Shown: positions 20,308-35,425, counted from the stretch's first letter. The stretch: DNA of 64,000 nucleotides from Candidatus Anderseniibacteriota bacterium (GCA_021414205.1 JAIOOW010000002.1:18692-82691), one strand, 5' to 3'. A program made the numbers and translations. The notes: generated from the letters alone by a model not told the origin.

Positions 20308-20312
20308 ACCAT

Positions 20313-22136
20313 ATGTGTGGCATTGCGGGCAAAGTATCGTTAGGAATGCGGAACGTCACAAATTCTGAAATTTCGGCAATGACAGATGCAATAGCTCACC
20401 GAGGGCCAGATGATACAGGTGCATATATTTCCCCAAATCGCAAAGTAGGGCTTGGTCATAGGAGGCTCTCCATTATCGACCTTTCTTCTGCCGGCCATCA
20501 GCCCATGCGATATATGGATCGTTATGAAATTGTATTTAATGGCGAGATATACAACTTCCAAGAAGAGAAAACGAAACTAGAAAAAGATGGCTATGTATTT
20601 TATTCGCATACGGATACGGAAGTTATCTTGGCGCTATACGATAAATATAAAGAGGATTGCGTTCAATATTTGCGGGGCATGTTCGCCTTTGCTATTTACG
20701 ATGAGCAAGATAACACCATATTCTGCACTCGTGACCGTGTTGGGCAAAAGCCATTTAAGTACTATCAAGACGAGAGCGTTTTTATATTCGGATCGGAATT
20801 AAAAACAATACTAACTCAGTCGGAATACAATAAGGAGCCAGACCGAGAAGCAATCATTGATTTCCTAGTACTGCAATACACCCCTGGAACTACAACTGGT
20901 TTTAAGCATATTAAAAAATTATTGCCAGGACACACCCTTTTGCTTGATATTAAGCAAAAGAAAACAAAAATAACGCCCTATTGGAATCTTCAATATGCAG
21001 AGAATCTCTCGCTTTCGCAGCAAGCATGGGAAGATAGTATTGCCAGCATGCTTCAAGAATCCGTCGCGGAGCAAATGATTTCTGATGTGCCCGTTGGCGC
21101 CATGCTTTCAGGGGGAATCGATTCTTCTATTATTGTTTCGCTCATGACACAGCAGTCCTCAAAACAAATAAATACATTTTCAGTTGGGTTTGAAGGAGAA
21201 CAAGTAAGCGAGCTTCCATACGCGAAAAAAATTGCGGAAAAATTCAACACGAGTCATCACGAATTACATATCAAGCCTACGAGCATAGATATTCTTCAGC
21301 AGCTTGTGCATGTAATGGAGGAGCCTTTCGGAGATCATGGGGCGCTCCCTACGCTTCTTATTAGCAAGCTTATGAAAGAGCATGTCACAGTAGCATTAAA
21401 CGGCGATGGCGGAGACGAAAATTTTGCAGGGTACGATCGATACACCGCATATAAGCTATCAAATATTCTTTCTCCGTATAATAGCCTTGCGCGAAGCGTC
21501 GCGCGCGCAATCCCAGTTGTATCAAAAACTGAACGATTGCACCGATTTATTGCGTCTTTGTCATATTCCCCAGAGCGAAGATATCTCGAATATATTTGCT
21601 ATATTTCTCCTCAAACTATGGACAGGTCATCCATTGAATCTATATCTCATGCATTTACATCGGAAAAATCTGCTGATTGGCTCAGCAAACTATTGTCCGC
21701 AGATCTTCATACCTACCTTCCAGGAGCCCTGCTTCCAAAAGTTGATATGGCTACTATGGCTTATTCCCTAGAAGCTCGTTCCCCGTTTTTCGATCATCGA
21801 TTTATGGAAATGGCAGCGAGTATTCCGTCTTCGCTGAAAATAAAAGGCTTGAATAACAGGAAATATATTCTCAAATCAGCTTTTAAAGATAGCATTCCAG
21901 AAGAAATTCTTCATAGAAAAAAGAGGGGCTTTAGCGTGCCCCTCGAGGCGTGGTTCCAAGATGATCTCCTGGCTTTTGCAATATCCCTCCTCAGCTCGCC
22001 CGCTACACGCTCAGCAGGATATATTTCTCATGAAAAAATACAGCATATACTTACAACCCATGCTCGGCACGGCAGCCAAGGCAGACAATTATGGATTCTC
22101 CTCATGCTTGAGCTGTGGCTTCGCGAGTTTTTCTAG
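20313..22136 (+). CDS. asnB: Asparagine synthetase B-type glutamine amidotransferase. Likely a glycan amidotransferase (WbpS-like) given the context.
   Basis: Starts MCGIAG (Cys2 nucleophile of class-II GATase). Has the SGGIDSS PP-loop of the synthetase domain and is about 600 aa. Start set at the MCGIAG Met; the ORF track starts 33 nt upstream. Confidence 0.8.
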   Translation: MCGIAGKVSLGMRNVTNSEISAMTDAIAHRGPDDTGAYISPNRKVGLGHRRLSIIDLSSAGHQPMRYMDRYEIVFNGEIYNFQEEKTKLEKDGYVFYSHTDTEVILALYDKYKEDCVQYLRGMFAFAIYDEQDNTIFCTRDRVGQKPFKYYQDESVFIFGSELKTILTQSEYNKEPDREAIIDFLVLQYTPGTTTGFKHIKKLLPGHTLLLDIKQKKTKITPYWNLQYAENLSLSQQAWEDSIASMLQESVAEQMISDVPVGAMLSGGIDSSIIVSLMTQQSSKQINTFSVGFEGEQVSELPYAKKIAEKFNTSHHELHIKPTSIDILQQLVHVMEEPFGDHGALPTLLISKLMKEHVTVALNGDGGDENFAGYDRYTAYKLSNILSPYNSLARSVARAIPVVSKTERLHRFIASLSYSPERRYLEYICYISPQTMDRSSIESISHAFTSEKSADWLSKLLSADLHTYLPGALLPKVDMATMAYSLEARSPFFDHRFMEMAASIPSSLKIKGLNNRKYILKSAFKDSIPEEILHRKKRGFSVPLEAWFQDDLLAFAISLLSSPATRSAGYISHEKIQHILTTHARHGSQGRQLWILLMLELWLREFF

Positions 22137-23352
22137 ATTCAACACGAATACTGTCCAGTAGCGCACGCAATGACCCATGTATCGGTCGCATGCCGGAAGT
22201 CGAAACATATTCTCCTCGTAGCGCTCGCTGAACAATAGCATCTCCGAATCTTTTATCAACAATTTCTCCTGATCGTTTTTTACCCGTAAGTATTACAGCG
22301 ATGGACGCCCCGGTTCTTAATAGTGTGTCTCTCGTAAAAGAAATAATCATCACCCAAGCATATTCATGCTCGATGCGTTCGGAAGTATTGCGAAAAAGAT
22401 CCCATAATACATTTACTGCATATTGATACATGATTCGAATTTCCGCAAAAGAATATGCAATACGCATTTGCGCAATTTCCCCCATGAGCATGGCCGTGCG
22501 ATATAATTTTTTACTTGTAAGGTGCGAGTCAATATACTCGCGGATGCGAACATTCTCTACATCATCTCGAAAAAACCATAGGGTGCATATCCGATGCATT
22601 GCAAAATTATCCTGACAATCCATTGCGCTTCGCACTGTCTCTGGTTGGACTGCCAAATAATTCTTAAAAGAAAACATGGATCGATCAGGGCTAATTCTTG
22701 GCCGATAATCAAATCGCGTAATAGCTTTTACTGCAGTTGTAACGCCTACACGAAGGTGGAGTTCATCAATACTATCGGCAATTCTGTAATTCATGTATCT
22801 ATCAGGCAACGTTGTTTGATATGCGTTTTCATTTCGAAAAATCTCCCTTATAACGACTGTGCTATACAGCGTATAGTTTGAATCTGTTAGCGCAAAATAT
22901 TCGAGATATATGGATTCTTCCGGGCTGAGCACATGCACATCAGAAGTAGGCATAAATAGCAGCTGAAGGCGATGCTCTAAGTGAACAATAAGTGAAGCAT
23001 AGGAAATGGAAGCTAGGTAATGCTTATGTATTTGCTCAACAGCAGATTCAATGAAATCTGGGTAATAGATATTGTCGTCATCTAAACGTACAAAATATTC
23101 TCCTTTTACATACGAGAATGCAGCATTCCAATTTTCAACCATCGGTAAGTCCGTATTCGATACATGATATTCTACGCGAGGATCTTGGATAAGGTCATCA
23201 ATATATTCTTTTGTACCATCGGAAGAATTATTGTCATGAACGATGATCTGTAAATTTTTATATGTTTGCTGAACGACGGACCGAAGTGCGTCTTGAAGAA
23301 ATTCTTTTCGATTGCGCGTCGGAATAACGACAGAAACGAGTGGGGGTGTCAT
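22102..23352 (-). CDS. GT2 family glycosyltransferase with a roughly 300-aa C-terminal extension of unknown function.
   Basis: VSVVIPTRNRKEFLQDALRSVVQQTY...IIVHDNNSSDGT...VRLDDDN (GT-A DxD). Its 3' end overlaps convergent asnB by 35 nt. Confidence 0.65.
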   Translation of the reverse strand: MTPPLVSVVIPTRNRKEFLQDALRSVVQQTYKNLQIIVHDNNSSDGTKEYIDDLIQDPRVEYHVSNTDLPMVENWNAAFSYVKGEYFVRLDDDNIYYPDFIESAVEQIHKHYLASISYASLIVHLEHRLQLLFMPTSDVHVLSPEESIYLEYFALTDSNYTLYSTVVIREIFRNENAYQTTLPDRYMNYRIADSIDELHLRVGVTTAVKAITRFDYRPRISPDRSMFSFKNYLAVQPETVRSAMDCQDNFAMHRICTLWFFRDDVENVRIREYIDSHLTSKKLYRTAMLMGEIAQMRIAYSFAEIRIMYQYAVNVLWDLFRNTSERIEHEYAWVMIISFTRDTLLRTGASIAVILTGKKRSGEIVDKRFGDAIVQRALRGEYVSTSGMRPIHGSLRALLDSIRVESRKTREATAQA

Positions 23353-24476
23353 TCCAGTATTGTAACGTCAGGGTTAATGGTAAGCAGCTGCTGCAAAATT
23401 TCTTCTCGATAGGCACCGACCTTTAACACAACCCCTATATTCTTTTTTCCCCTGATAACTTCTGGCTTGTATACCGTAAATGGAGTGCCATACAACCTCT
23501 TACCTTCTTTTATTGGAGAATTATCGAGAATGCCTACAACTTTTGTTTTATCCAGCCCAACTTCAAATAAGTATTGAGAAAAAATATGCCCACCAAATAC
23601 ATACACCTCATCCAAGCTATCCATTTGAGAGCTCAATAGAGTAATCAAATCTTTGTAATACTCAACAAAGTCCATGAACAATTTTTTATACTCAGTATAT
23701 TTGCTTTCAAGCTGTACAGCCTTTTGAGGTGTTGCCGTTTTTTCTGTCGTATAAAAAAAGCTATGATCTTTGTATGCATGCTTATCTATGATGCGGAATC
23801 CGTATTCAGCAAGCAGATAATCTACAAAGTAATCGGTGAGCAACATCGTATGCTCAAAATTCAACGAGGAGAGGTTTTTATTCGCCATCCACAAAGTCAA
23901 GTTCGGATATGCAAAGACAAGCTTATCTCCTTCTTTTAGATACGAAGCAATTGATTCTATAAATTCTCGCGGATCATATGCATGTTCCCATGTATGAGAA
24001 AACACCACCATATCGTATGAATCTTCGCTTTTAAAATTCTTATCAAAAAAACCTTTCATGATCGAAATATGATCATTCCCAGCATGTAGTGGATTCGGCT
24101 CAATAATTGTCCAATGACTATCCTGATTTTTCTCGATGAATTTTTCAGCAATAGCCCCCTGACCTCCGCCAATCTCTAAAACATTTTTTGGCTTATGAGC
24201 CGTAACATAATCCGCAAATACCTGGTAAAACGTTTGCCACGTAGAACCCGTCCCATCCATATGCTGAGCTTGATAGAGCAAGTCGGGCGGAACGAGTTCA
24301 GTTAGCTGAATAATTCCAGATTCCGGACAGATTGCCCAATTCATATCTACGCGAATATCTTCTTTCGGATCCGTATCGACGCACCCAAAAAATACGGGGA
24401 AGTTTTTATACTGATACAGGGGTTCTAGGTTTTCTTTTCCAGTAATAATGCTTTTATTTCGCTCAATGAGTTTCAT
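23349..24476 (-). CDS. SAM-dependent methyltransferase, sugar-modifying type (C- or O-methyltransferase with extra N- and C-terminal domains).
   Basis: Motif I VLEIGGGQGAIAEKF in the middle of a 375-aa protein. The three-part domain layout resembles NDP-sugar C-methyltransferases (TylC3-like) but lacks the N-terminal Cys4 cluster. ATGA overlap with both neighbours. Confidence 0.55.
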   Translation of the reverse strand: MKLIERNKSIITGKENLEPLYQYKNFPVFFGCVDTDPKEDIRVDMNWAICPESGIIQLTELVPPDLLYQAQHMDGTGSTWQTFYQVFADYVTAHKPKNVLEIGGGQGAIAEKFIEKNQDSHWTIIEPNPLHAGNDHISIMKGFFDKNFKSEDSYDMVVFSHTWEHAYDPREFIESIASYLKEGDKLVFAYPNLTLWMANKNLSSLNFEHTMLLTDYFVDYLLAEYGFRIIDKHAYKDHSFFYTTEKTATPQKAVQLESKYTEYKKLFMDFVEYYKDLITLLSSQMDSLDEVYVFGGHIFSQYLFEVGLDKTKVVGILDNSPIKEGKRLYGTPFTVYKPEVIRGKKNIGVVLKVGAYREEILQQLLTINPDVTILE

Positions 24477-24988
24477 ACTGTAAATTTATGGGTAAATAAA
24501 TCGAATGGCTCAAAAAATGTTTCAAGAATATGGAGACACGCCTCGGCAACTGCGCCTTCGCCCCCTCTTGCATTTGTCACAAAATCAGCTTGTTTCTTTG
24601 TTGCATAAAACGCATTAGCGGGCGCTATCGAGTAGGCAACGCGCTTAAACACGAGTGGGTCAAAGATGCCATCGCCCATATAAATAGTTTCGGACAAATC
24701 AAATCGCTTCTCTATCCACGCAACGCGGTCAAATGTGCTTACTAAATCAAGAGGTAAATGCATGTCGTCAGCTACTCTCCTCTTCGTAATAGCAAAACCA
24801 TTCTTGTCGCCCGATATAGCATGAAGCAAGAGCTTGTCTTTCAATAATGAAAGCGCATCGTTATCTTCTGGCCCAAATTTTTTCATTATCTTTCCTTCCG
24901 TGGTGTAGTAAAAAGTGCCATCAGTAAACACGCCATCGACGTCAAGAATGAAATTTTTAACTACCTTCTTTTGCATGGTGCTTTTCAT
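24473..24988 (-). CDS. KdsC-family HAD phosphatase (sugar-acid/sugar-phosphate phosphatase of the YrbI type).
   Basis: NFILDVDGVFTDGTFYY (KdsC motif I DVDGVLTDG), YMGDGIFDPLVFKRVAYSIAPANA (motif III GDDxxD), and C-terminal GGEGAVAEACLHIL (KdsC GGRGAVREVCDLIL). Around 170 aa. Confidence 0.65.
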   Translation of the reverse strand: MKSTMQKKVVKNFILDVDGVFTDGTFYYTTEGKIMKKFGPEDNDALSLLKDKLLLHAISGDKNGFAITKRRVADDMHLPLDLVSTFDRVAWIEKRFDLSETIYMGDGIFDPLVFKRVAYSIAPANAFYATKKQADFVTNARGGEGAVAEACLHILETFFEPFDLFTHKFTV

Positions 24989-26615
24989 TGTTTAATGCCC
25001 TAAATAGTTGCAATTTCCCGAAATAATAAAGGAATAAATCATACGGATGAGAGTGCAAGGGTGACATGTTTAACCATAAAATTGGAGTTAGTATGTCTAT
25101 CTTGCGAATATCCAATCCTCTTTCTATGATATATTGCTTTAAGATTTCTTGACACTCTACCAATCGCTCGCTTCGAAATATGTCGCATGTTACTACGTTT
25201 TTGTGCCGATCAATATTAAAATGACCGTAATTAATCATCTCGTGATTAATTACTAAGTTATGATTCAGCTTTGCGAGATCGTAATACATGTCGCCGCCTC
25301 GAATTAATCCTCCAAAATCTTGTCGCCAATCTAGAAGCGTATACCCTTTAGCAGTTTTAATAATATTGTCTGGAATAAAATCTCCGTGAAAAGAAGTCTG
25401 CTGAGTATCTGCAAGCCAATCAAAATCTACTTTTTTAAGTAGTGCCGCAAGTGACGGAACAGTTTCTCCATTAATGATGTTGGTACTATCTTTAATATTT
25501 CGTGTTTTTAAAAACTCCTGCGTGCGCTTTATTGTCTTTGTGTAATAAAAATCATAACAAATATCCTGAAAGCGCTTTGCAGAAACTTCTTTTTCGGGCT
25601 TCCAAACATTGCTAAACGCCCAATTCAGAAAATGAGGGAACGTTGCTGGAGTAATAACGGAAGCCAGCAGATCACCTTTTGCATATTTATACTTATAGAA
25701 ATGCGCTGTGGAACCCTCAATAGGAGGGACAAGCGAGCCAAGTGCACGAGCGCGTCGAACCCTATTTTTTGCAATAAGCGTATCGCTGAAGAATTTAACA
25801 ACGGAGGTTTTGAATAAATAAATAGATTCCGATGGCTTATCAAGAATATGGAATGAATCGTGAATCGCCTCTCGAGCTGCATTCAAGCTATCTACATTCC
25901 CTACGTCGTACCATGGATTAAACTCTATGCCGGTAAATACAGTGTCTCTCTCGAGCATTTGCTGCAGGATATCAACATCGCTCAGTGATTCATCTTCGGG
26001 ATTTGCTGCATATAAATCGATAGCACATTTCCAGAAAAGCTTATAATCGAATATCCCGACAAGACCGATGTGAAGATAGTCAGGGTTAAGATTCCCCTTT
26101 TCGGAAAAATACTGAATAACCCCATCAGCAATAGTAAATGATGCATATTGAGATGAATTTTCAGACACATATCCACCAGCCCAATTTTTTATAGGAAGAG
26201 GAATTTTTTGATGAACAATAGTGTCGGAAGCATGGTAAATAAACGGTTTCTGTAAATGCTTTTTTGCAGATAGCATGGAGTGGGCCAAGCTGCTCCCTTT
26301 TCCCGAATAGGTTTTCACAGGCACGAACGTTACGGAAATATTAGGATACACAAGAGAAATAAACTCTTTAACGTGTTCGCCGAAATGTCCGAGCGTGATT
26401 ACGAAATGAGTGTTCTTTGGGTACGACTCGATGATGTAGGAAAGAGCTGGCTTTCTTCCTATTTTCACTAATGCTTTATTCGTATATGTGGTGAGCTCTC
26501 CTAGCTTACTGCCTATTCCAGAGGTGGTAATCAATACAGTCAATTCCTGTTTTTGTTTTGGCATGAAAAAAGTGTTACACGGAGGAAAATAATCTACAAG
26601 CCTCTCTGTGGGCAT
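24957..26615 (-). CDS. Bifunctional sugar-1-phosphate nucleotidyltransferase (N-terminal) fused to an APH/choline-kinase-fold kinase (C-terminal).
   Basis: N-terminal LTVLITTSGIGSKLGELTTYTNKAL (G-x-G-T-R-L nucleotidyltransferase signature) and WYDVGNVDSLNAA. C-terminal FHGDFIPDNII...LLDWRQ (catalytic loop HGDxxxxN and the IDWE-equivalent of the APH/ChoK/anomeric sugar-kinase fold). The probable true start is MPKQKQ at 26564. Confidence 0.6.
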   Translation of the reverse strand: MPTERLVDYFPPCNTFFMPKQKQELTVLITTSGIGSKLGELTTYTNKALVKIGRKPALSYIIESYPKNTHFVITLGHFGEHVKEFISLVYPNISVTFVPVKTYSGKGSSLAHSMLSAKKHLQKPFIYHASDTIVHQKIPLPIKNWAGGYVSENSSQYASFTIADGVIQYFSEKGNLNPDYLHIGLVGIFDYKLFWKCAIDLYAANPEDESLSDVDILQQMLERDTVFTGIEFNPWYDVGNVDSLNAAREAIHDSFHILDKPSESIYLFKTSVVKFFSDTLIAKNRVRRARALGSLVPPIEGSTAHFYKYKYAKGDLLASVITPATFPHFLNWAFSNVWKPEKEVSAKRFQDICYDFYYTKTIKRTQEFLKTRNIKDSTNIINGETVPSLAALLKKVDFDWLADTQQTSFHGDFIPDNIIKTAKGYTLLDWRQDFGGLIRGGDMYYDLAKLNHNLVINHEMINYGHFNIDRHKNVVTCDIFRSERLVECQEILKQYIIERGLDIRKIDILTPILWLNMSPLHSHPYDLFLYYFGKLQLFRALNNEKHHAKEGS

Positions 26616-26702
26616 ATTGACATAAGCGTTCTTTTTTAGTATGCATACGGAGCAAGGGGTCCCGATTGATCATTCGAAAACTTAAAATAAAAGAAAGTCA
26701 TC

Positions 26703-27227
26703 ATGACGCCAGAAAGAAGTGCGTTACTTGCAGAACTGTTGGAAGAGTTGCTGAAGTTCAAACGAGCAGGCAATAATATGCCTCCGGCCGTGTTTGAGGC
26801 ATCGCTTCCCCTTTTCCCACAACTGGTTATTGAATTCCTGGTGTTTCGAAGCACGCCGTCGGAACGAAAAATTGAAATTCTCTTGGTAGAGAGACCTTCC
26901 AATGTCGCATATCCAAATCAATGGCATTGCCCAGGAACGTTTGTGCGTCCTGGTGATGCGATGGATCGAGCGTTCGAACGAGCACGGATTGGCAAACTGG
27001 GCGGAGCGATAATTACGCAAATAGAATTTCTGACCAACCAACTCTACGTCGATCCTAATCGCAATGATGCGACTATTTTAAGAATGGTTTATACGGTTCA
27101 GATTGCCGAAGAAGATAATCCGCCCAAAGGCAAATTTTTCGAAATCTACCCGAATAATAACCTACCCGCGGAACTGGTATGGGAACAGCCCATGCTCATT
27201 GATCTTTTTCCAATTCCGAATAACTAG
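26703..27227 (+). CDS. Hypothetical protein with a degenerate Nudix-like fold.
   Basis: IEILLVERPSNVAYPNQWHCPGTFVRPGDAMDRAFERARIGKLGG fits the Nudix beta-strand/loop/helix layout but lacks the canonical REUXEE glutamates. It fills the gap between two minus-strand transcription units and is followed by a strong rho-independent terminator, which supports it being a real gene. Confidence 0.3.
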   Translation: MTPERSALLAELLEELLKFKRAGNNMPPAVFEASLPLFPQLVIEFLVFRSTPSERKIEILLVERPSNVAYPNQWHCPGTFVRPGDAMDRAFERARIGKLGGAIITQIEFLTNQLYVDPNRNDATILRMVYTVQIAEEDNPPKGKFFEIYPNNNLPAELVWEQPMLIDLFPIPNN

Positions 27228-27246
27228 TGAACCGGTCAAAAGTAAA

Positions 27247-27287
27247 ACTCTACGAATGCAACTATGCGATCGTAGAGTTATTTTTTT
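27247..27287 (+). terminator. Rho-independent terminator downstream of the Nudix-like gene, possibly bidirectional.
   Basis: A perfect 9-bp stem (actctacga / tcgtagagt) with a 14-nt loop, followed by tattttttt. The stop codon of the convergent nucleotidyltransferase gene lies inside the loop. Confidence 0.55.
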
Positions 27288-27978
27288 GCAGATACTCTTC
27301 AGTTTTTGCCAATGCAGGAGGATTGCCGGTATCAAGCCAAACTGGAAATTGCACCAGGCGAATAGGGGTTGCATCTTGAAGCATAGGATTAAACGGAGAA
27401 GTATCGTTCATGGTTTGGTCATGAGGATTTGCTGCATATAAAGCTCTAAGATACTTCCAGTATGATTCGTAATTATTAATACCAAATAGACCGATTAATA
27501 CATTATGAGAATCACCCTCTTTTTTATCATTAATTCGGGTAATAATATTATCCATATCAGCCTGAATTGTTCGGTACTGACTCACATCACCGGGAATCGT
27601 ATGGCCAGCAATCCAATTTTTATCAGGAGCAGGTATAGCAGTATTAAGAACGACGGTATCGCATGCATGGAATATAAAAGGTTCTTGTAAATATGGTTCT
27701 GCTTGGAGCAAGGAGTATGCCAGACTGCTTCCATCGCCCTCATACTTATCTACATCAACAAACGTAATACTCCTGTCAGTGTAATGAGTTGTAAAGAAAT
27801 CCCGAACCTGATGAGCAAGATATCCAACAGTTATAACAAGTGGAATATCCGCGCTATATAAATCCAATATATACGAAATGGCAGGTTTCCCGGCAATAGG
27901 AACAAGAGCTTTGTTCGTATTCTTTGTAAGCGCTCCTAACCTAGAACCTGTTCCCGAAGTGGTAACAAGGACTTTCAT
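27262..27978 (-). CDS. Sugar-phosphate nucleotidyltransferase, paralogue of the N-terminal domain of 24957..26615.
   Basis: MKVLVTTSGTGSRLGALTKNTNKALVPIAGKP, ...LYAANP..., WLDTGNP. About 45% identical to the fused paralogue. Start set at MKVLV, 7 nt downstream of the rpe stop; the longer ORF would overlap rpe. Confidence 0.6.
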   Translation of the reverse strand: MKVLVTTSGTGSRLGALTKNTNKALVPIAGKPAISYILDLYSADIPLVITVGYLAHQVRDFFTTHYTDRSITFVDVDKYEGDGSSLAYSLLQAEPYLQEPFIFHACDTVVLNTAIPAPDKNWIAGHTIPGDVSQYRTIQADMDNIITRINDKKEGDSHNVLIGLFGINNYESYWKYLRALYAANPHDQTMNDTSPFNPMLQDATPIRLVQFPVWLDTGNPPALAKTEEYLQKNNSTIA

Positions 27979-27985
27979 AGATATA

Positions 27986-28648
27986 TTATAATAGCGTTTT
28001 TCTAAATGATTGTATTTTTTTGTCGAGTTGAGCAGGTGGTTGGAAGATAGTGCCCGTGCCACATACCAGCATGTTAGCCCCGGCTGCAACCATTTTATGA
28101 CCACTGTCTGGAGTTACTCCACCGTCTATTTCCAAGAAAATATCTTTTCCAGTTTCATCAATGCGTTTTCTTGCATCTGCAATCTTTTTCATCGTACCAG
28201 GAATAAGTTTATGCCCTACGATACCGGGGTTAATTGCCATCAACATCAATAAGTCCAAATCTTCAAGCACGTAGTCCAAGGTCGATAGCGACGTTCCGGG
28301 ATTTAAAGCGAGCCCTGCCTGAACACCAGCATTCTTAATCTTCATTACTGTACGATGAGGATGCATTAATGGCTCAATATGAGGAGTTATAATAGTTGCT
28401 CCAGCATCCACGAAATCTTGAATATATGGTTCCGGATTTTGAACCATCATATGTACTTCGATAGGAATGTTCGTTTTTGAACGTATTGCTTTTAAGTATT
28501 CGGGAAATAGCCCATATCGCGGAACAAACACCCCGTCCATCACGTCAAAATGAATGTAATCAATTTTTCCCTTTTTTAATGCGGCCAAATCTTTTTGGAG
28601 ATTAAGAGGATTTCCACAAATAATAGAAGCAGCTAGATTGCAGTGCAT
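27986..28648 (-). CDS. rpe: Ribulose-phosphate 3-epimerase family protein (Rpe or an allulose/hexulose-phosphate 3-epimerase relative).
   Basis: IHFDVMDGVFVP, EVHMMV, GG...VTPDS...AGAN...VCGT, the hallmark motifs of the RPE TIM-barrel. 220 aa. Confidence 0.7.
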   Translation of the reverse strand: MHCNLAASIICGNPLNLQKDLAALKKGKIDYIHFDVMDGVFVPRYGLFPEYLKAIRSKTNIPIEVHMMVQNPEPYIQDFVDAGATIITPHIEPLMHPHRTVMKIKNAGVQAGLALNPGTSLSTLDYVLEDLDLLMLMAINPGIVGHKLIPGTMKKIADARKRIDETGKDIFLEIDGGVTPDSGHKMVAAGANMLVCGTGTIFQPPAQLDKKIQSFRKTLL

Positions 28649-28650
28649 AG

Positions 28651-29241
28651 TTATTCTAAATTAGAATGACGAGCCCACATCGTGTCGTGCGTTTCATGCA
28701 TCTGCTCCATCAGCATAAGCACGAGGCAGTCAAATAAAATTCCGAGGCATTGCTCGTTTAATGTCGTCATCGGCTGAATAGAAGTGAATCCTTCAACTTG
28801 CTTTGTCTTAGATGGTGCTGGCAACAAAATAATAGCGTCTGCAAGCTTACCCATTCGCGAATCAGGGTTACCAGTAATAAGTGCAATTCGAGCCCCATTT
28901 TTATGGGCAATTTCTACAAGATCGTATATCGTCTGCGTTTCCCCTGACCCAGAAGCAACAATCAATAGATCGCCTTTTCCTAGTGCGGGTACCGTTGCAT
29001 CTCCAAGCATATGCACATGCTTGCCTAAGTGCGCCAATCGCATTGCAAAACCACGAACTGCCATGCCGACACGGCCAGCACCGCATGCGACGATCGTATT
29101 AGCATACTGAATCTCTCGTAAAAATTCTTCCGCTTCTTGTTGGTTAACTTTTCCTAATACCCATGAGATTTCGGCGAGGATCTGGAAAGAGGTTGTTTGT
29201 ATGTGAGTCTTTTGACTTCCTGCTGTTTCTGATTTGTTCAT
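28651..29241 (-). CDS. SIS-domain sugar-phosphate isomerase of the 6-phospho-3-hexuloisomerase (PHI/HxlB) / KdsD clade. Not GmhA-like.
   Basis: VACGAGRVGMAVRGFAMRLAHLG...GDLLIVASGSGET...TIQPM...HANLE. The single SIS domain (196 aa) with the AGRSG..FAMRL and SGSGET signature is PHI-type. The GNGGSA motif of GmhA is absent. Confidence 0.6.
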   Translation of the reverse strand: MNKSETAGSQKTHIQTTSFQILAEISWVLGKVNQQEAEEFLREIQYANTIVACGAGRVGMAVRGFAMRLAHLGKHVHMLGDATVPALGKGDLLIVASGSGETQTIYDLVEIAHKNGARIALITGNPDSRMGKLADAIILLPAPSKTKQVEGFTSIQPMTTLNEQCLGILFDCLVLMLMEQMHETHDTMWARHSNLE

Positions 29242-29281
29242 ATGTGAAGCGTATCACTGGATATATGGCATGACAAACAAG

Positions 29282-30562
29282 TCAGGAATGCAGTATATCG
29301 CTCGAATGTTTGCCGATATATCCTTTGTGCCAAAAGAAGTACAGAAAAGCAAAGTAGAGAAATACGATTCCAAAAGAAAATGGCGCAGCAAATAGCCCGA
29401 TACTTGGCAAGAAATACCAAAGCAATCCAATAAAAATGGATCCTCCGATCACGCTTTGTGCTGCGATGAAGAAAAAGTATTTTGGACCAAAACTTAAGAA
29501 AACATTCACGTATACGGTGTACAGGAACGTTAAAGTTGCATACATACCCATCGCCATACCAAGAGGTATAGATAGCGGATATTGCTTACCAAATAATGAG
29601 AACAAAACGATGCAGACCAGTGTAAAAAATAAAAATAGGGGAACAATGCTAATAATCACAATTCGAGAAAGCTGCTTCATTAATGCTCTCCCGTCGCTTC
29701 GATGAGCAACTTCAGGAAATAGGACGTTCATAATAATATTACTCAACTGCATCGCAATCGACACAGATACGACCGCATAGGCGCTATAAATACCAAGTTG
29801 CACATGCCCAAGGCGATGCTCAACAACTATTTTATCTATGCTTAAAAAAAGAATTGTACCAACGGCTGAAAGAACTCCAAATTTACCATACGCCCAAGAT
29901 TGTATCCCTTGAGCAGTATTTATTTTTAAATGAGGCACTGTCCGCAAAATCGCAATGAGATACGATGCGATAGAGAAAAGAGCACCGCATGAAAGACTGA
30001 AAATAAGGTTTCCATATCCATGCTTATTAAATAACTCATATAGAATATAGAAGGCGCCCAATGATATCGCGGCATCCCCTACTTTAATAAGCGATTGGAA
30101 TCGAAACCCTCCCGTTGCACGGATAACAGAATCAAGACCAACTCGAACTGCAAGCAACGCCATAAATCCAATAGATATATCAAATAGAAAAACTGGGATT
30201 TGAAAAAAAGAACTTGCATATGAGCTTACGGCATACAATATCCCCGATGATGCGACAATAATGCCAAAGAGGAATAAAAACCCTGACAGCGCAGCCTCGC
30301 CAACATTATACGTTTTCTTTGCTAGTACAATGCTTCGGATGATCGCCACATCCATACCCTGAACCGGAAAAGAAAATATTTGCACAAGCGCCAACACAAG
30401 CCCATACGAAGCAAATTCTTTTGGCCCCAACACTCTCCCGCTAATAACATAGGTACTGATAGAGATAAGAGATGCTATGGCAAATCCAATAAATGAATAG
30501 GAAAGATTTGCTAAAAATGCCCGTATATTGCCGCTTAGTATGTCTTTGAAATATCGAATCAT
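29282..30562 (-). CDS. Wzx-type oligosaccharide flippase (polysaccharide biosynthesis protein, MOP superfamily).
   Basis: 426 aa with roughly 12 TM helices. The N-terminal IRAFLANLSYSFIGFAIASLISISTYVISGRVLGPKEFASYGLVLAL pattern is typical of PST/Wzx proteins. Confidence 0.6.
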   Translation of the reverse strand: MIRYFKDILSGNIRAFLANLSYSFIGFAIASLISISTYVISGRVLGPKEFASYGLVLALVQIFSFPVQGMDVAIIRSIVLAKKTYNVGEAALSGFLFLFGIIVASSGILYAVSSYASSFFQIPVFLFDISIGFMALLAVRVGLDSVIRATGGFRFQSLIKVGDAAISLGAFYILYELFNKHGYGNLIFSLSCGALFSIASYLIAILRTVPHLKINTAQGIQSWAYGKFGVLSAVGTILFLSIDKIVVEHRLGHVQLGIYSAYAVVSVSIAMQLSNIIMNVLFPEVAHRSDGRALMKQLSRIVIISIVPLFLFFTLVCIVLFSLFGKQYPLSIPLGMAMGMYATLTFLYTVYVNVFLSFGPKYFFFIAAQSVIGGSIFIGLLWYFLPSIGLFAAPFSFGIVFLYFAFLYFFWHKGYIGKHSSDILHS

Positions 30563-30611
30563 CTATACGGATTATACTGAATATGCGCTATCCATGATAC
30601 AGTGCTAGGTT

Positions 30612-32774
30612 ATGAAAAAGATAGGTATCATCATACTACTGTCAGCATTATTTCTCTGGTTTGCCACTCCATGGTCTGCCAGTGTCGGTATTATTGCCCT
30701 GCTTAGCTTTATGTTTTTTAGCGTCACTGACTGGGAATCTCGCCCGAGATTATTCCAAGGGGTCGCCATAACTCTCGTCGCCCTCATTGGTCTTTATATA
30801 GTAGGGCCTCGAATTGCGCCGCAACCATGGTCAATTTGCTTTCAAAGAACTGTCGTGCCCGAAACCTTGAAAACACCATGCGAAACAAGCGCGCAGTTTC
30901 CTTATGGAGAAAAAACATTGACGGCAGATACGATTGCTTGGGACACAAATACCATTCCGACGTACTTCATGGATGATAAATTAGCGTTTAACTGGTATCT
31001 ACCGGCGGATCCCAATCGAGAGCACTTGCCTTATAACATGATTCTTGCAAGAACTATCCAGGGCGGTCCGCATCAGCACGTAGCAATTACTAGTTCGTTT
31101 GCAGGGCTCACTGCAACCAGTGACGGCGTCAACACAACTATTCAAAAAAACAAAGAAACGACGCTCTATTTTTCAGAACAGAAGATGTATCAACTACGCA
31201 TAAGCGGTGCTCATATTCGCGACGCATCGGATTCTCTGCACGTTTCTGGAATTAATAATTCATTTTTATATATCTTATTTCACGCAATAAAAAACATTGG
31301 ATACGCAATTTTGTGCCTCCTCATTATTCGTTGTGCGTACCTGCAAGTTATTCGTTTACCACATGAACAGCGATATATGGCAGTCGGTATTGCGGGAATT
31401 CTCGCAATACTCTACCTACTTCCAAGCGAACAATTCGGGGTGCTTGCACTCGCATTGTTTTTTGCGTGGTGCGGGAGAAGAAAAAACATGTTACTGCCTA
31501 TATTGCTATTTGCAATACTTATTGCGCTGTCGTTTGCTCGGTCGTTTATTCCGTATGAGCATGTATACATTAATTACGGAATCCCGTTTCTTACTATACT
31601 AGCAATAATCTGCTCGACATTTTTCAGACAACAAAAAATAAGCATAGTAGTTATTGCGTTATTGCTACTGAACAGCTTTATATTTATTTCGCATACGCAC
31701 CCGTATGGCAGCCTCGTACTATTTACAGGAGGCAATGACGAATTAACGCACGAAGGATTTGCCCGATTAGCCCTTACGGGGCAAACGTGGCGCGACAAGC
31801 TCATTGCGGGAGAAAACTATGCGTTCTACTATCAGCCACTGTATCGTTACATGCTAGCTGGCATGCATGCATTATGGGGAGAATCAATGTTTGGCCCATA
31901 TGTGGTGCAAACATTCCTCACAAGCATTGCATTTTTCACGACGCTTAGATTTTTACGCATATTCAACATTCGATACCTACCGGCACTATTTGCTGTTCTT
32001 TTCATTCTTACCAATTACGTCTACTACGTCTCGTTATTCACGTTGTCGCAAGGCGCATTTCAACAATCAATCGCATTGCCGTTGCTGATTATCTGCTGGA
32101 TTGCAACCCTGTCGATGATATATAAAAAACCCTCCGCTCAATTCGGAATACTGCTTGGCCTTGCATGGGGAGTAGTGTATGCAACGCGAACAGATTTTCT
32201 GCCGTCCCTTCCCATTGTATTTTGCATAACAGCCTACGCAACTTGGAAACAACGCATCCTGCCCTCTTGGATTCTTGGGCTGTCCATTGCGCCGATACTG
32301 GTTATTGCAAGAAATATCATCATCGCGCATCAGGCGGTCTTCATGCCTACATCAGGACTTATTAATCTAACGTCGGAATTTACTCCGCTATTTCCAAATA
32401 CAACAGCACAAGAACTGCAATCACTAGGATACGGAGATTTACTTAAGCACGTATATGCAACATATCACAACAACATAAGCGCGTTATGCATAGCAATTTG
32501 GCATAACCTCAGAGAAAAATTCATAGGAATTATCCCGCCAAGAATTGTACTATGGTACATATCTCCAGTAACTGTTGTATTAGCATTACTACTAAAGCCA
32601 AGTAAGCAGATTGCCGTAATTCTATTATTCGTATTACTTTTCTTTTTAATACTGATTCCCAATATATTTTTTGATCAGCATAACGGCGTTGCGATGTTTG
32701 GATTCTATGACTATATCTTGCTATTATTTTGCGCAATTGCAGGATCGAAATTACTCTATATACTAAAAATATGA
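30612..32774 (+). CDS. GT-C-fold glycosyltransferase (PMT/ArnT-like) with an N-terminal anchored periplasmic domain.
   Basis: 720 aa. Two N-terminal TM helices are followed by a roughly 170-aa soluble domain and then about 11 TM helices. GGNDELTHEGF carries a DE first-loop motif, and YAFYYQPLYRYMLAG resembles PMT/ArnT family proteins. Confidence 0.5.
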   Translation: MKKIGIIILLSALFLWFATPWSASVGIIALLSFMFFSVTDWESRPRLFQGVAITLVALIGLYIVGPRIAPQPWSICFQRTVVPETLKTPCETSAQFPYGEKTLTADTIAWDTNTIPTYFMDDKLAFNWYLPADPNREHLPYNMILARTIQGGPHQHVAITSSFAGLTATSDGVNTTIQKNKETTLYFSEQKMYQLRISGAHIRDASDSLHVSGINNSFLYILFHAIKNIGYAILCLLIIRCAYLQVIRLPHEQRYMAVGIAGILAILYLLPSEQFGVLALALFFAWCGRRKNMLLPILLFAILIALSFARSFIPYEHVYINYGIPFLTILAIICSTFFRQQKISIVVIALLLLNSFIFISHTHPYGSLVLFTGGNDELTHEGFARLALTGQTWRDKLIAGENYAFYYQPLYRYMLAGMHALWGESMFGPYVVQTFLTSIAFFTTLRFLRIFNIRYLPALFAVLFILTNYVYYVSLFTLSQGAFQQSIALPLLIICWIATLSMIYKKPSAQFGILLGLAWGVVYATRTDFLPSLPIVFCITAYATWKQRILPSWILGLSIAPILVIARNIIIAHQAVFMPTSGLINLTSEFTPLFPNTTAQELQSLGYGDLLKHVYATYHNNISALCIAIWHNLREKFIGIIPPRIVLWYISPVTVVLALLLKPSKQIAVILLFVLLFFLILIPNIFFDQHNGVAMFGFYDYILLLFCAIAGSKLLYILKI

Positions 32775-35087: not shown

Positions 35088-35425
35088 AGAAATTAGACGC
35101 CATGCACGCAGCAAGCGCATATAGCATGTTGATTGGGATCGTCTGCGCAGCATTACGGTTAAACATCTGGATAACCCTCATCGCATTTATAGCTGGATTC
35201 ATATGGGCGCTTCGACTGCTAGATATCCGAAAATACGCCCTTATATATTCGATATTCCTATTCGTGCCGATAGTAGCGCTATTTATACGCATTCCAATCC
35301 CAGCATTTCTGCCAGACCTTATCCGTCTTGCAATTACGTTTTTCTTTTGGATACTAATCCTGCTCCTATCCTCATACTTAGTATTGGGACATAAAAAATC
35401 AAAAGAGCAGCGCAGCCGTATATAA
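35084..35425 (+). CDS. Small hydrophobic membrane protein (three or four TM helices), function unknown.
   Basis: The ATG overlaps the upstream TGA (translational coupling). Strongly hydrophobic with K/R flanks. Confidence 0.35.
   Translation: MKKLDAMHAASAYSMLIGIVCAALRLNIWITLIAFIAGFIWALRLLDIRKYALIYSIFLFVPIVALFIRIPIPAFLPDLIRLAITFFFWILILLLSSYLVLGHKKSKEQRSRI

What the first reader, a model, noticed from the sequence alone, without database searches (positions are those of the whole stretch)
24957..26615. Unusual gene fusion: G1P-type nucleotidyltransferase (N-terminal) plus APH/choline-kinase-fold kinase (C-terminal)
Known kinase/pyrophosphorylase fusions such as Fkp, HldE and the LicA/LicC pairs use GHMP or ribokinase folds, or keep the two activities on separate proteins. 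Here an N-terminal domain with LxxxxSGxGSKLG and WYDVGN motifs is fused to a C-terminal domain with the HGDFxPxN catalytic loop and an LDWRQ (IDWE-like) motif of the aminoglycoside/choline/anomeric-sugar kinase fold. Such a fusion would channel a free sugar or amino-alcohol into a sugar-1-P and on to the NDP form in one polypeptide. A standalone paralogue of the nucleotidyltransferase half (27262..27978, about 45% identical) sits 650 bp away, which suggests two related but distinct substrates.
Basis: seen in the sequence. Interest (0 to 1): 0.6.

Follow-up and report, generated by a model that had tools for sequence, protein, structure and literature searches.

The report
Fused sugar kinase–nucleotidyltransferase in glycan cassette
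The gene is a real, widely conserved fusion of a nucleotide-sugar-forming enzyme and an antibiotic-kinase-like small-molecule kinase; it sits in a fixed cassette with a sugar-phosphate epimerase, isomerase and phosphatase, and most likely makes an unidentified activated rare sugar for the cell surface of tiny uncultured (CPR) bacteria.

Summary
Window 24957..26615 (-) is one uninterrupted ORF; the likely CDS is 24957..26564, 535 aa. It has an N-terminal RmlA/LicC-type nucleotidyltransferase (NT) and a C-terminal APH/choline-kinase-fold kinase with all catalytic motifs intact.

It is not a one-off. The fusion is the dominant architecture of a large uncharacterised family: 597 clusters at 50% identity with E<=1e-30. 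Members are mostly Patescibacteria, plus Bacteroidota, Verrucomicrobiota and DPANN archaea.

In 67 distinct loci the fusion almost always has a KdsC-type HAD phosphatase beside it (57/60). It usually follows a PHI-type SIS isomerase and an RPE-type 3-epimerase (48/59). Where those are absent, a PMI-type cupin and a GatZ/KbaZ-like protein usually take their place.

That gene set matches the isomerase, anomeric kinase, distal phosphatase, NT logic of ADP/GDP-heptose (HldE/GmhB) and GDP-valienol (AcbU/AcbJ/AcbR). It does not match free-sugar or choline salvage.

I conclude, by inference, that this is a de novo route from a ketose phosphate to an NDP-activated rare aldose. The sugar and nucleotide are unknown.

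In this window the NT loop reads GSKLG (Arg to Lys). Loss of that Arg across the family correlates with presence of the standalone paralogue.

New variant of a known kind; moderate interest.

The parts
24957..26615 (-). Full ORF of the NT-kinase fusion as listed (552 aa). The likely CDS is 24957..26564 (535 aa), starting at the second ATG.
   Evidence: ORF. (P0001, 100% identity, 535 aa). (family alignment begins near Met18). (both ATGs read).
25860..26564 (-). N-terminal RmlA/LicC-type nucleotidyltransferase domain (residues 1-235 of the 535-aa protein).
   Evidence: Pfam PF00483, 26.7 bits, above the gathering score. Profile against PDB: LicC 1jyk E 9e-7. Foldseek: LicC TM 0.84, plus RmlA, GalU, HddC and MurU.
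26499..26522 (-). NT P-loop SGIGSKLG. The family consensus is SGTGSRLG; this window has Lys where the family and canonical NTs have Arg.
25896..25913 (-). WYDVGN, the WxDxG motif of RmlA-type NTs. Asp220 is invariant in the family.
   Evidence: The motif's role as a metal ligand is from established knowledge of RmlA-type enzymes.
24960..25859 (-). C-terminal APH/choline-kinase-fold kinase domain (residues 236-535).
   Evidence: AF2 pLDDT 90.6. All top 50 Foldseek PDB hits are APH/ChoK-fold kinases. Pfam APH matched by 16/16 members.
25788..25802 (-). VVKFF, a beta-strand carrying invariant Lys257, the presumed ATP-binding beta3 lysine.
   Evidence: Invariant column K257. Strand E254-259 in the model. 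Coordinates. The role is inferred.
25365..25388 (-). HGDFIPDN catalytic loop (HxDxxxxN). H393, G394, D395 and N400 are invariant.
25320..25334 (-). LDWRQ, containing invariant D412 (the metal-binding Asp equivalent to DFG/IDFE) followed by invariant W413 and R414.
25257..25295 (-). GDMYYDLAKLNHN, the third conserved block of the APH/ChoK C-lobe. G424, D425, Y427, Y428, D429, K432, H435 and N436 are invariant.
   Evidence: Comparison to the choline-kinase motif is from my own knowledge.
24473..24988 (-). KdsC/YrbI-type capless HAD phosphatase (171 aa; DVDGV...GDGxxD). It overlaps the 3' end of the fusion gene by 32 nt.
   Evidence: NCBIfam KdsC subfamily 70 bits and KDN-9-P phosphatase 66 bits, both below cut-off. 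PDB KdsC/YrbI E 1e-16 to 1e-10. Found within 3 kb of the fusion in 57/60 loci.
27262..27978 (-). Standalone NT paralogue (NT2, 238 aa) with the canonical TSGTGSRLG loop.
   Evidence: 43% identity to the fused NT. Present near the fusion in 13/36 well-flanked loci.
26703..27227 (+). Nudix-like ORF on the opposite strand between NT2 and the fusion. Lineage-specific insertion.
   Evidence: Pfam NUDIX 20.4 bits, just below the gathering score. An orthologue was found only in L007.
27986..28648 (-). RPE-family ketose-phosphate 3-epimerase (220 aa).
   Evidence: Pfam Ribul_P_3_epim E 9e-62. TIGR01163 213.8 bits against a cut-off of 212.6; AlsE model 158 bits against 271. PDB RPE 172 bits, AlsE 114 bits. 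Present in 48/59 loci.
28651..29241 (-). SIS-domain phosphosugar isomerase of the 6-phospho-3-hexuloisomerase (HxlB/PHI) type (196 aa).
   Evidence: TIGR03127 194.9 bits against a cut-off of 160. PDB YckF/HxlB E 3e-34. Present in 48/59 loci.
29282..30562 (-). Wzx-like polysaccharide flippase heading the cassette.
   Evidence: Pfam Polysacc_synt_3 and Polysacc_synt. Same position in L001, L003, L009, L014, L018 and others.
23349..24476 (-). 375-aa SAM methyltransferase (Methyltransf_23, plus a weak match to the C-methyltransferase C-terminal domain). Frequent downstream partner of the cassette.
   Evidence: Present in 23/36 well-flanked loci.
22102..23352 (-). GT2 glycosyltransferase, a candidate user of the product.
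   Evidence: Orthologues at 200-330 bits in L010, L030 and L039.

Best explanation
The protein is a bifunctional enzyme of a dedicated nucleotide-sugar pathway.

Proposed steps:
1. The co-transcribed RPE-type epimerase and PHI-type SIS isomerase convert a central ketose phosphate into a rare aldose carrying a distal phosphate. The starting ketose is most plausibly a hexulose 6-phosphate such as fructose-6-P; a pentulose or heptulose phosphate is not excluded.
2. The C-terminal APH-fold kinase domain phosphorylates the anomeric hydroxyl, giving a sugar 1,n-bisphosphate.
3. The translationally coupled KdsC-type HAD phosphatase removes the distal phosphate.
4. The N-terminal RmlA/LicC-type domain (or the paralogue NT2) condenses the sugar-1-phosphate with an NTP to give the NDP-sugar.
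5. The surrounding glycosyltransferases, methyltransferases and Wzx flippase use that NDP-sugar to build a surface glycan.

This is the logic of ADP/GDP-heptose synthesis, where the bifunctional HldE also carries out two non-consecutive steps. Here it is built from different folds.

What is shown: the domain folds, the intact catalytic motifs, the family size and the cassette conservation. What is inferred: the substrate class, anomeric regiochemistry, step order, and the identity of the sugar and nucleotide.
For: 1. Both domains look catalytically competent. In the NT domain, G16, G22, N29, K30, D114 and D220 are conserved. In the kinase domain, K257, H393-G-D395, N400 and D412 are invariant across sequences only 50-78% identical. 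The models are confident.

2. The fold is the one used by known anomeric or sugar kinases. Maltokinase and glucosamine kinase are among the top hits. NahK, AmgK and MtnK also have this fold (my own knowledge).

3. Gene context across 67 distinct loci:
- HAD within 3 kb in 57/60 loci, and immediately downstream on the same strand in 47.
- SIS and RPE upstream in 48/59 loci.
- In the window the HAD gene overlaps the fusion by 32 nt.

4. Most loci lacking SIS and RPE carry a different pair: a PMI-type cupin and a GatZ/KbaZ-like class II aldolase-fold protein. By family, both pairs are a phosphosugar isomerase plus a ketose-phosphate-modifying enzyme. That fits a sugar-phosphate substrate for the constant fusion-HAD core.

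5. No phosphomutase was found among the 36 large ORFs scanned between 7 and 40 kb of the window. This explains the need for a kinase/phosphatase phosphate 'shift'.

6. Biochemically proven precedents for kinase, then HAD phosphatase, then NT:
- GmhA/HldE/GmhB (PMC10948575).
- AcbU/AcbJ/AcbR, where the 1-kinase prefers the 7-phosphorylated substrate and the phosphatase removes only the distal phosphate (PMC9200736).

7. The cassette sits in a glycan island with Wzx flippases and many GT4 and GT2 genes.
Against: - No enzyme of this family has been assayed.
- The known sugar kinases of the APH fold act on unphosphorylated sugars, so a sugar-phosphate substrate would be new for the fold.
- Structurally, the NT domain is closest to LicC and IPCT, which act on phospho-alcohols rather than anomeric phosphates.
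- In this window the P-loop Arg is Lys. In 11 of 61 scored family members it is not Arg, so the fused NT may be weakened in some lineages.
- The SIS protein scores as a 6-phospho-3-hexuloisomerase, a 2-ketose/3-ketose isomerase, not as an aldose-ketose isomerase. The assumed aldose product is therefore not secure.
- The two cassette types are interspersed in the fusion tree. That is awkward if they deliver different sugars to a specific enzyme.
Confidence: 0.55

Rival explanations
1. Phosphatase-first (salvage-like) order. The HAD enzyme dephosphorylates the rare sugar phosphate to a free sugar. The APH-fold domain then acts as a classical anomeric kinase on the free sugar, as NahK, AmgK and Mak do. 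The NT domain immediately converts the sugar-1-P to the NDP-sugar, so the two fused activities are consecutive and could channel.
For: The characterised sugar kinases of this fold use unphosphorylated sugars (my own knowledge; maltokinase and glucosamine kinase are among the fold hits). A fusion of consecutive steps is the more usual rationale for a fusion. The net ATP cost is identical. AcbU also accepts the unphosphorylated substrate, at about 20% of the rate.
Against: In both systems read here that combine a kinase, a HAD phosphatase and an NT (heptose and valienol), the kinase acts first, on the distal-phosphorylated substrate. The same holds for the lincomycin octose pathway (my own knowledge). 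HldE shows that fusing non-consecutive steps does occur. Releasing a free rare sugar into the cytoplasm risks losing it.
Confidence: 0.2
2. Division of labour with NT2. In this window's lineage the fused NT domain (GSKLG) is catalytically weakened, or has become a structural or regulatory module. The standalone paralogue NT2 (GSRLG) performs the nucleotidyl transfer, or makes a second nucleotide form of the sugar. This is compatible with either step order.
For: The P-loop Arg is replaced (by K, P, G, A or D) in 11 of 61 scored fusions. Of those 11, 8 have NT2 nearby, against 7 of 50 with Arg (Fisher p = 2.5e-4, not corrected for phylogeny). Where the P-loop of NT2 could be read it always keeps the canonical G-S-R-L-G core, usually as TSGTGSRLG. 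NT2 forms a mostly coherent group, about 45% identical to the fused domains.
Against: Lys is a conservative replacement. K30, D114 and D220 are retained in the window protein, so activity may persist. Seven loci have both an Arg-type fusion and NT2. Flank lengths limit detection of NT2. The statistics ignore shared ancestry.
Confidence: 0.25
3. LicCA-like activation of an amino-alcohol. The kinase phosphorylates choline, ethanolamine or a similar alcohol. The LicC-like NT makes the CDP-alcohol, which is used to decorate the glycan with a phospho-alcohol.
For: LicC is the best sequence and structure match of the N-terminal domain. Ethanolamine and choline kinases top the fold hits of the C-terminal domain. 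Some JGI records call homologues 'choline kinase'. The domain order matches T. denticola LicCA (my own knowledge).
Against: There is no match to Pfam Choline_kinase or to any LicA or LicC NCBIfam model at their cut-offs. No LicB or LicD-type gene was found among the 36 large ORFs scanned between 7 and 40 kb. The conserved partners are sugar-phosphate enzymes and a sugar-phosphate-type phosphatase, which a choline route does not need.
Confidence: 0.05
4. Artefact or dead domain. The ORF is two genes joined by a sequencing error, or the C-terminal domain is an inactive pseudokinase.
For: Pfam APH is below the gathering score for the window protein. Two GTDB loci (L059, L072) show the gene split into two ORFs.
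Against: The single-ORF architecture of about 525 aa occurs in more than 60 genomes and in most of the listed best 150 of the 597 50%-identity clusters. The catalytic Lys, HGD, Asn and Asp are invariant. The full-length model has pTM 0.86. An apparent standalone kinase hit that I checked is a contig-edge truncation.
Confidence: 0.01

Closest known systems
HldE (bifunctional D-beta-D-heptose 7-phosphate kinase / heptose 1-phosphate adenylyltransferase), working with GmhA and GmhB
   Same: One polypeptide carries an anomeric sugar-phosphate kinase and an NT. It works with a separate SIS-family isomerase and a separate small HAD phosphatase that acts between the two steps. The starting material is a ketose phosphate and the product is an NDP-sugar for a surface glycan (PMC10948575).
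   Different: HldE has a ribokinase-fold kinase at the N-terminus and a cytidylyltransferase-fold NT at the C-terminus (my own knowledge). Here the order is reversed and both folds differ: an RmlA/LicC-type NT and an APH-fold kinase. The phosphatase is KdsC-type rather than GmhB-type. The isomerase is PHI-type rather than GmhA-type. An extra ketose-phosphate epimerase is present.
HddA/GmhB/HddC (GDP-heptose), LmbP/LmbK/LmbO (GDP-octose, lincomycin) and AcbU/AcbJ/AcbR (GDP-valienol, acarbose)
   Same: The same three-step solution for moving a phosphate from the distal carbon to C1 and then adding a nucleotide: 1-kinase, HAD phosphatase, RmlA-type NT. HddC is among the structural hits of the N-terminal domain. 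The acarbose steps are documented in PMC9200736.
   Different: In those systems the kinase and NT are separate proteins. HddA and LmbP are GHMP-type kinases (my own knowledge). None of those clusters contains an RPE-type epimerase.
LicC and LicA, and the T. denticola LicCA fusion (CDP-choline)
   Same: The closest solved structure to the N-terminal domain is LicC. The C-terminal domain has the choline/ethanolamine-kinase fold. LicCA has the same N-to-C domain order (my own knowledge, Kent et al. 2004; not verified in the library).
   Different: There is no family-level sequence membership in Choline_kinase, LicA or LicC. No licB or licD neighbours were found. The conserved partners are sugar-phosphate enzymes.
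AmgK/MurU and NahK (anomeric kinases of the APH fold, with a uridylyltransferase)
   Same: An APH-fold kinase phosphorylating the anomeric OH is followed by an RmlA-like NT. MurU (4y7u) is a structural hit.
   Different: Those are salvage enzymes for free amino sugars and are encoded as separate proteins in the studied species. The MurU NCBIfam models score 17 bits against a cut-off of 250. No AmgK or NahK model is matched.
Fkp (L-fucokinase/GDP-fucose pyrophosphorylase)
   Same: A natural bifunctional protein with an N-terminal pyrophosphorylase and a C-terminal kinase, producing an NDP-sugar (PMC11982464, listed).
   Different: The Fkp kinase has a GHMP fold, it salvages free fucose, and no phosphatase is involved.

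Membership tests
RmlA/GlmU/LicC-type sugar(-alcohol)-phosphate nucleotidyltransferases (Pfam PF00483) | Profile score above the Pfam gathering threshold | tested here: met
   26.7 bits against 21.2, residues 29-253 of the 552-aa ORF.
RmlA/GlmU/LicC-type sugar(-alcohol)-phosphate nucleotidyltransferases (Pfam PF00483) | Rossmann-like alpha/beta NT fold | tested here: met
   AF2 pLDDT 91. Foldseek LicC TM 0.84, RmlA/GalU/HddC/MurU 0.6-0.8, E about 1e-12 to 1e-10.
RmlA/GlmU/LicC-type sugar(-alcohol)-phosphate nucleotidyltransferases (Pfam PF00483) | N-terminal G-x-G-[ST]-R-[LM] loop with the catalytic Arg | tested here: inconclusive
   The window has SGIGSKLG (Lys for Arg). The family consensus is SGTGSRLG. 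The position is non-Arg in 11 of 61 members.
RmlA/GlmU/LicC-type sugar(-alcohol)-phosphate nucleotidyltransferases (Pfam PF00483) | Conserved Lys after the loop, and the two acidic metal or phosphate ligands (xxD; WxDxG) | tested here: met
   K30 is at least 90% conserved. D114 and D220 (WYDVGN) are invariant.
APH / choline-kinase (eukaryotic-like kinase) fold, Pfam PF01636 | Bilobal kinase fold | tested here: met
   All top 50 PDB Foldseek hits of the isolated domain are APH/ChoK-fold kinases, probability 1.00, E down to 7e-6.
APH / choline-kinase (eukaryotic-like kinase) fold, Pfam PF01636 | Catalytic loop HxDxxxxN, a downstream metal-binding Asp, and a beta3 Lys | tested here: met
   H393, D395, N400, D412 and K257 are invariant in 31 sequences. 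Coordinates.
APH / choline-kinase (eukaryotic-like kinase) fold, Pfam PF01636 | Profile score above the gathering threshold | tested here: inconclusive
   The window protein scores 16.7-18 bits against 23.2. All 16 members match, the best at E 2.4e-8. A profile of the domain finds no PDB sequence at a significant E.
LicA/LicC (or LicCA) CDP-choline system | Membership of the choline-kinase and LicC sequence families | tested here: not met
   No Pfam Choline_kinase hit and no LicA or LicC NCBIfam hit. The LicC similarity is at fold and superfamily level only.
LicA/LicC (or LicCA) CDP-choline system | Association with a choline transporter (LicB) and a phosphocholine transferase (LicD) | tested here: not met
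   None among the 36 large ORFs scanned between 7 and 40 kb of the window, nor in the annotated neighbours of L001-L006.
AmgK/MurU peptidoglycan-sugar salvage | Equivalog-level match to MurU or AmgK | tested here: not met
   MurU model 17.4 bits against a cut-off of 250. No AmgK hit for the C-terminal domain.
HldE-type bifunctional heptose kinase/adenylyltransferase | Ribokinase (PfkB) kinase domain plus a cytidylyltransferase-like NT domain | tested here: not met
   Both folds are different. No HldE NCBIfam hit.
HldE-type bifunctional heptose kinase/adenylyltransferase | Pathway context: SIS isomerase plus a small HAD phosphatase, with a ketose-phosphate precursor | tested here: met
   SIS in 48/59 loci and HAD in 57/60. 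This is an analogy of logic, not homology.
Any of the above | Demonstrated enzymatic activities (anomeric kinase; NDP-sugar formation) | not testable with these tools
   Requires biochemistry.

The most novel reading that the evidence does not exclude
The SIS/RPE (or cupin/GatZ-like) + fusion + HAD cassette is a previously unrecognised, phosphomutase-independent de novo route to one or more rare NDP-hexoses, widespread in CPR bacteria. Candidates are C3- or C4-epimers of mannose or glucose, such as altrose/allose or talose. The route would pass through a hexose 1,6-bisphosphate. Its kinase would be the first APH-fold enzyme shown to phosphorylate the anomeric position of a sugar phosphate. In lineages such as this one, the fused NT domain would be decaying into a non-catalytic module, with a duplicated NT taking over.
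Probability: 0.3. Interest if true: 0.7.

Novelty: new variant of a known kind. Interest (0 to 1): 0.55.

Why it matters
CPR/Patescibacteria are ultra-small, largely uncultured episymbionts, and their surface chemistry is almost unknown. This cassette is one of the most conserved glycan-precursor modules I could see around this family. It is also shared with Bacteroidota, Verrucomicrobiota and DPANN archaea.

If the proposed mechanism holds, three things follow:
- It defines a new enzyme family: an APH-fold sugar(-phosphate) 1-kinase fused to an RmlA-type NT.
- It provides a third fold solution to the kinase/phosphatase/NT strategy known from heptose, octose and valienol activation.
- It gives a handle for identifying an unknown rare sugar on CPR cell surfaces.

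The fusion would also be a compact two-activity catalyst for chemoenzymatic synthesis of rare NDP-sugars. The work is directly testable with four small soluble proteins.

Tried and rejected
- **Sequence search of the C-terminal domain profile against the PDB.** No significant hit; maltokinase reached only E 1.8. The fold had to be established by structure prediction instead.
- **Foldseek with the whole model.** It returned only NT-domain hits, so I modelled the C-terminal domain separately.
- **Literature searches.** I looked for a characterised member, for natural AmgK-MurU fusions and for LicCA. None described this family or cassette. The LicCA fusion could not be verified in the held library and is given as my own knowledge.
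- **Standalone kinase-only homologues (~325 aa) in the representative search.** The one I checked is a contig-edge truncation, so I do not claim a separate-gene version exists.
- **The 375-aa methyltransferase as a TcaB9/TylC3-type sugar C-methyltransferase.** There is only a sub-threshold Methyltransf_14 match and no PDB relative. I left this open.
- **Identifying the sugar from the epimerase.** The RPE-like protein scores nearer to Ru5P 3-epimerase than to allulose-6-P 3-epimerase, but sits only at the equivalog cut-off. This is not decisive.
- **Frameshift and pseudokinase explanations.** Rejected.


Full report
**1. The observation**

Window 24957..26615 on the minus strand is a single ORF of 552 aa. 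An identical protein is in NCBI as a 535-aa hypothetical protein of a Candidatus Andersenbacteria MAG (P0001), so the window comes from a CPR/Patescibacteria genome. The family alignment shows that nearly all homologues begin at the second ATG (26564). Only the closest relative listed, P0002 (78% identity), shares the 17-residue extension. I therefore take 24957..26564 as the CDS.

- SGIGSKLG at 26499..26522
- WYDVGN at 25896..25913
- HGDFIPDN at 25365..25388
- LDWRQ at 25320..25334

**2. Domain identities**

*N-terminal half.* It passes the Pfam NTP_transferase threshold (26.7 against 21.2 bits). A profile of 31 family members finds LicC (1jyk, E 9e-7), RfbF, IPCT and MurU in the PDB. The full-length AlphaFold2 model is confident (pLDDT 91.4, pTM 0.86). 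Its best Foldseek PDB matches are LicC (TM 0.84 on the target), GalU, RmlA, HddC, IPCT and MurU.

*C-terminal half.* It is much more divergent.
- Pfam APH scores only 16.7-18 bits for the window protein, below the threshold of 23.2. All 16 members tested match APH, the best at E 2.4e-8.
- A profile of the domain finds nothing significant in the PDB by sequence.
- Curated NCBIfam kinase models give only sub-threshold matches around the catalytic loop, to GntI, ThiK, APH(3') and maltokinase.
- Modelled alone (residues 236-535, pLDDT 90.6), all 50 of its top Foldseek PDB hits are APH/choline-kinase-fold small-molecule kinases. These include ethanolamine and choline kinases, APH(2''), APH(4), maltokinase, glucosamine kinase, an FN3K-like protein and macrolide phosphotransferases. 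Best E is 7e-6, TM 0.45-0.53, identity 9-14%.

*Catalytic residues.* The beta3 lysine (K257), the HGD...N catalytic loop (H393, D395, N400) and the metal-binding Asp (D412) are invariant across sequences that are only 50-78% identical overall.

The C-terminal half is a kinase fold with its catalytic Asp, and the ORF is not two genes.

**3. Distribution**

- The word-indexed search returned 1446 hits. The best 120 are nearly all full-length proteins of about 520-547 aa, at 51-100% identity.
- An exhaustive profile search with the kinase domain alone, against 1.84 billion cluster representatives, found 2563 proteins at E<=1e-3 and 597 at E<=1e-30. In most, the domain sits at about residues 230-525 of a 510-545-aa protein.
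- A shorter hit that I checked is a contig-edge truncation.
- In GTDB species representatives the gene occurs in 74 loci. Most are Patescibacteria lineages. Others are Bacteroidota (Chitinophagia, Sediminibacterium, Pedobacter, Saprospiraceae, Flammeovirgaceae), a Limisphaerales MAG, an Eubacteriales MAG and DPANN archaea.

The fusion is therefore the normal state of a large, unnamed family and not a local accident. Source names are generic or conflicting: 'hypothetical protein', 'nucleoside-diphosphate-sugar pyrophosphorylase', 'choline kinase', 'dTDP-glucose pyrophosphorylase'.

**4. Context, the key evidence**

In the window the minus-strand gene order is as follows:

| Coordinates | Strand | Gene |
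|---|---|---|
| 29282-30562 | - | Wzx-like flippase |
| 28651-29241 | - | PHI/HxlB-type SIS isomerase (TIGR03127, 195 bits against cut-off 160) |
| 27986-28648 | - | RPE-family 3-epimerase (TIGR01163, 213.8 against 212.6) |
| 27262-27978 | - | Standalone NT paralogue NT2 |
| 26703-27227 | + | Nudix-like ORF |
| 24957-26564 | - | The fusion |
| 24473-24988 | - | KdsC-type HAD phosphatase, overlapping the fusion by 32 nt |
| 23349-24476 | - | 375-aa methyltransferase |
| 22102-23352 | - | GT2 |

The same order, flippase-SIS-RPE-fusion-HAD-methyltransferase-GTs, appears in Moranbacteria and Microgenomates contigs.

I searched the ORFs of all fetched loci with the window's proteins and counted 67 distinct fusion loci:
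- HAD within 3 kb in 57 of 60 loci with enough downstream sequence; immediately downstream on the same strand in 47.
- SIS and RPE in 48 of 59 loci with enough upstream sequence.
- In the 36 loci with at least 5 kb on both sides: HAD 35, SIS 30, RPE 30, methyltransferase 23, NT2 13.

Eleven loci lack SIS and RPE. Most of these carry a second module instead: a cupin of about 115 aa of the type II phosphomannose-isomerase kind directly upstream, and a GatZ/KbaZ-like class II aldolase-fold protein of about 333 aa after the HAD gene. These type 2 loci are interspersed among type 1 loci in a neighbour-joining tree of the fusion. The upstream module therefore appears to be exchanged around a constant fusion-HAD core.

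No phosphomutase, LicB or LicD was found among the 36 large ORFs scanned between 7 and 40 kb of the window. That region is a glycan island with six GT4 and three GT2 genes, two flippases, two SDR epimerase/dehydratases, an asparagine synthase and methyltransferases.

**5. Mechanism**

The conserved set is a phosphosugar isomerase, a kinase, a small HAD phosphatase and a nucleotidyltransferase. That is exactly the enzyme set of NDP-heptose synthesis:
- GmhA isomerises sedoheptulose-7-P.
- The kinase domain of bifunctional HldE phosphorylates the anomeric carbon.
- GmhB removes the 7-phosphate.
- The NT domain of HldE makes ADP-heptose (PMC10948575).

The same kinase, HAD phosphatase, NT sequence was shown biochemically for GDP-valienol. 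AcbU prefers the 7-phosphorylated substrate, AcbJ removes only the distal phosphate, and AcbR then uses GTP (PMC9200736). It is also known for the lincomycin octose pathway (my own knowledge).

I therefore propose the following. The epimerase and isomerase make a rare aldose n-phosphate from a central ketose phosphate. The APH-fold domain phosphorylates O1. The coupled KdsC-type phosphatase removes the distal phosphate. The RmlA/LicC-type domain forms the NDP-sugar for the neighbouring glycosyltransferases.

The family relatives of all four alternative upstream enzymes (PHI, RPE/AlsE, PMI cupin, GatZ/KbaZ) act on six-carbon ketose 6-phosphates. A hexose is therefore the most economical guess: for example C3-epimer-series sugars in type 1 cassettes and C4-epimer-series sugars in type 2. 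This is speculation. Pentose and heptose routes are not excluded, and the nucleotide is unknown.

Shown: folds, motifs, conservation and synteny. Inferred: substrate class, anomeric regiochemistry, step order and product.

**6. Rivals**

- (a) *Phosphatase-first order*, with the kinase acting on a free sugar. Every characterised kinase + HAD + NT system runs kinase-first.
- (b) *LicCA-like amino-alcohol activation*. It is suggested by the LicC and choline/ethanolamine-kinase structural hits. It is contradicted by the lack of family-level matches, the absence of licB and licD, and the sugar-phosphate partners.
- (c) *Division of labour with NT2*. See section 7.
- (d) *Artefact or pseudokinase*. 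Excluded.

**7. The paralogue**

NT2 (27262..27978) is 43% identical to the fused NT domain. NT2 proteins form a mostly coherent group, about 45% identical to the fused domains and about 50% identical to each other. Where its P-loop could be read, NT2 always keeps the canonical G-S-R-L-G core, usually as TSGTGSRLG.

In the fusion, the Arg of this loop is replaced in 11 of 61 scored proteins, by Lys (as in the window), Pro, Gly, Ala or Asp. Canonical RmlA/GlmU-type enzymes use this Arg to bind the NTP phosphates (established knowledge). Eight of those 11 have NT2 nearby, against 7 of 50 with Arg (Fisher p = 2.5e-4). This test is not corrected for shared ancestry or for unequal flank lengths, so it is a lead rather than a result. 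It does offer an alternative to 'two distinct substrates': relaxed constraint on the fused NT where a duplicate is available.

**8. Comparison with known systems and novelty**

Functionally the protein works like HldE, and more loosely like Fkp, LicCA or the AmgK+MurU pair. It is not a member of any of those families:
- Both folds differ from HldE.
- The kinase differs from Fkp, which is GHMP.
- There is no equivalog-level match to LicA, LicC, AmgK or MurU.
- No PDB entry has the two-domain arrangement.
- My literature searches found no description of the family or the cassette.

I rate it a new variant of a known kind: a bifunctional kinase/NT of an NDP-sugar pathway, built from a new fold combination and embedded in a new cassette.

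**9. Verdict**

Interest is moderate (0.55). A glycobiologist would find a CPR-wide, uncharacterised NDP-sugar module with an APH-fold kinase worth testing, and the experiments are straightforward. The pathway logic itself is well precedented, and the product is still unknown.

Noticed in passing
window 26499..26522; NT2 at 27262..27978: The fused NT domain has Lys in place of the P-loop Arg (GSKLG). Across the family, loss of this Arg correlates with a standalone NT paralogue nearby: 8/11 non-Arg against 7/50 Arg, Fisher p = 2.5e-4, not corrected for phylogeny.
   Followed up: partly
L006:6351-6698 and 8803-9798; also L036, L040, L044, L053, L055, L057, L069, L075: A second cassette type replaces SIS+RPE with a PMI-type cupin of about 115 aa and a GatZ/KbaZ-like class II aldolase-fold protein of about 333 aa. 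These loci are interspersed among SIS/RPE loci in the fusion tree, so the upstream module seems to be swapped around a constant fusion-HAD core.
   Followed up: partly
window 26703..27227 (+): A Nudix-like ORF lies on the opposite strand between NT2 and the fusion. It scores just below the Pfam threshold and its Nudix box looks degenerate (no REUxEE). An orthologue was seen only in the closest Andersenbacteria locus (L007). It may be an NDP-sugar hydrolase or regulator, or an inactive relic.
   Followed up: no
window 23349..24476 (-): A 375-aa methyltransferase (Methyltransf_23, plus a sub-threshold match to the C-methyltransferase C-terminal domain) accompanies the cassette in 23/36 well-flanked loci. 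TylF-type O-methyltransferases occur in others (L003, L005, L053). The product sugar may be methylated, possibly C-methylated.
   Followed up: partly
window 7154..40095: The whole region is a large glycan island. It holds six GT4 and three GT2 genes, two Wzx-like flippases (29282-30562, 36045-37316), an asparagine synthase (20280-22136), a DUF2334/deacetylase (17842-18543) and two SDR epimerase/dehydratases. It also holds several large ORFs without Pfam matches (11718-13760, 14830-16734, 30612-32774, 33714-35087, 38386-40095) that could be polymerases or ligases.
   Followed up: partly
window 26565..26615: An in-frame 17-codon extension upstream of the likely start is shared with the closest homologue listed (P0002, 78% identity) but is absent from the rest of the family. 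Neither ATG has an obvious Shine-Dalgarno sequence.
   Followed up: partly
L082:2743-5205 (P0161, 820 aa); also P0163, P0183, P0216, P0245: A few family members are 720-900 aa, with extra sequence before or after the kinase domain. P0161 has a weak NTP_transf_3 hit and neighbours including PIG-L and shikimate-dehydrogenase-like genes. These are possible tandem-NT or triple fusions.
   Followed up: no
L014, L027, L063, L074 (7001-9280 region): In several genomes NT2 lies directly upstream of the fusion, abutting or overlapping it, giving an NT-NT-kinase tandem.
   Followed up: no
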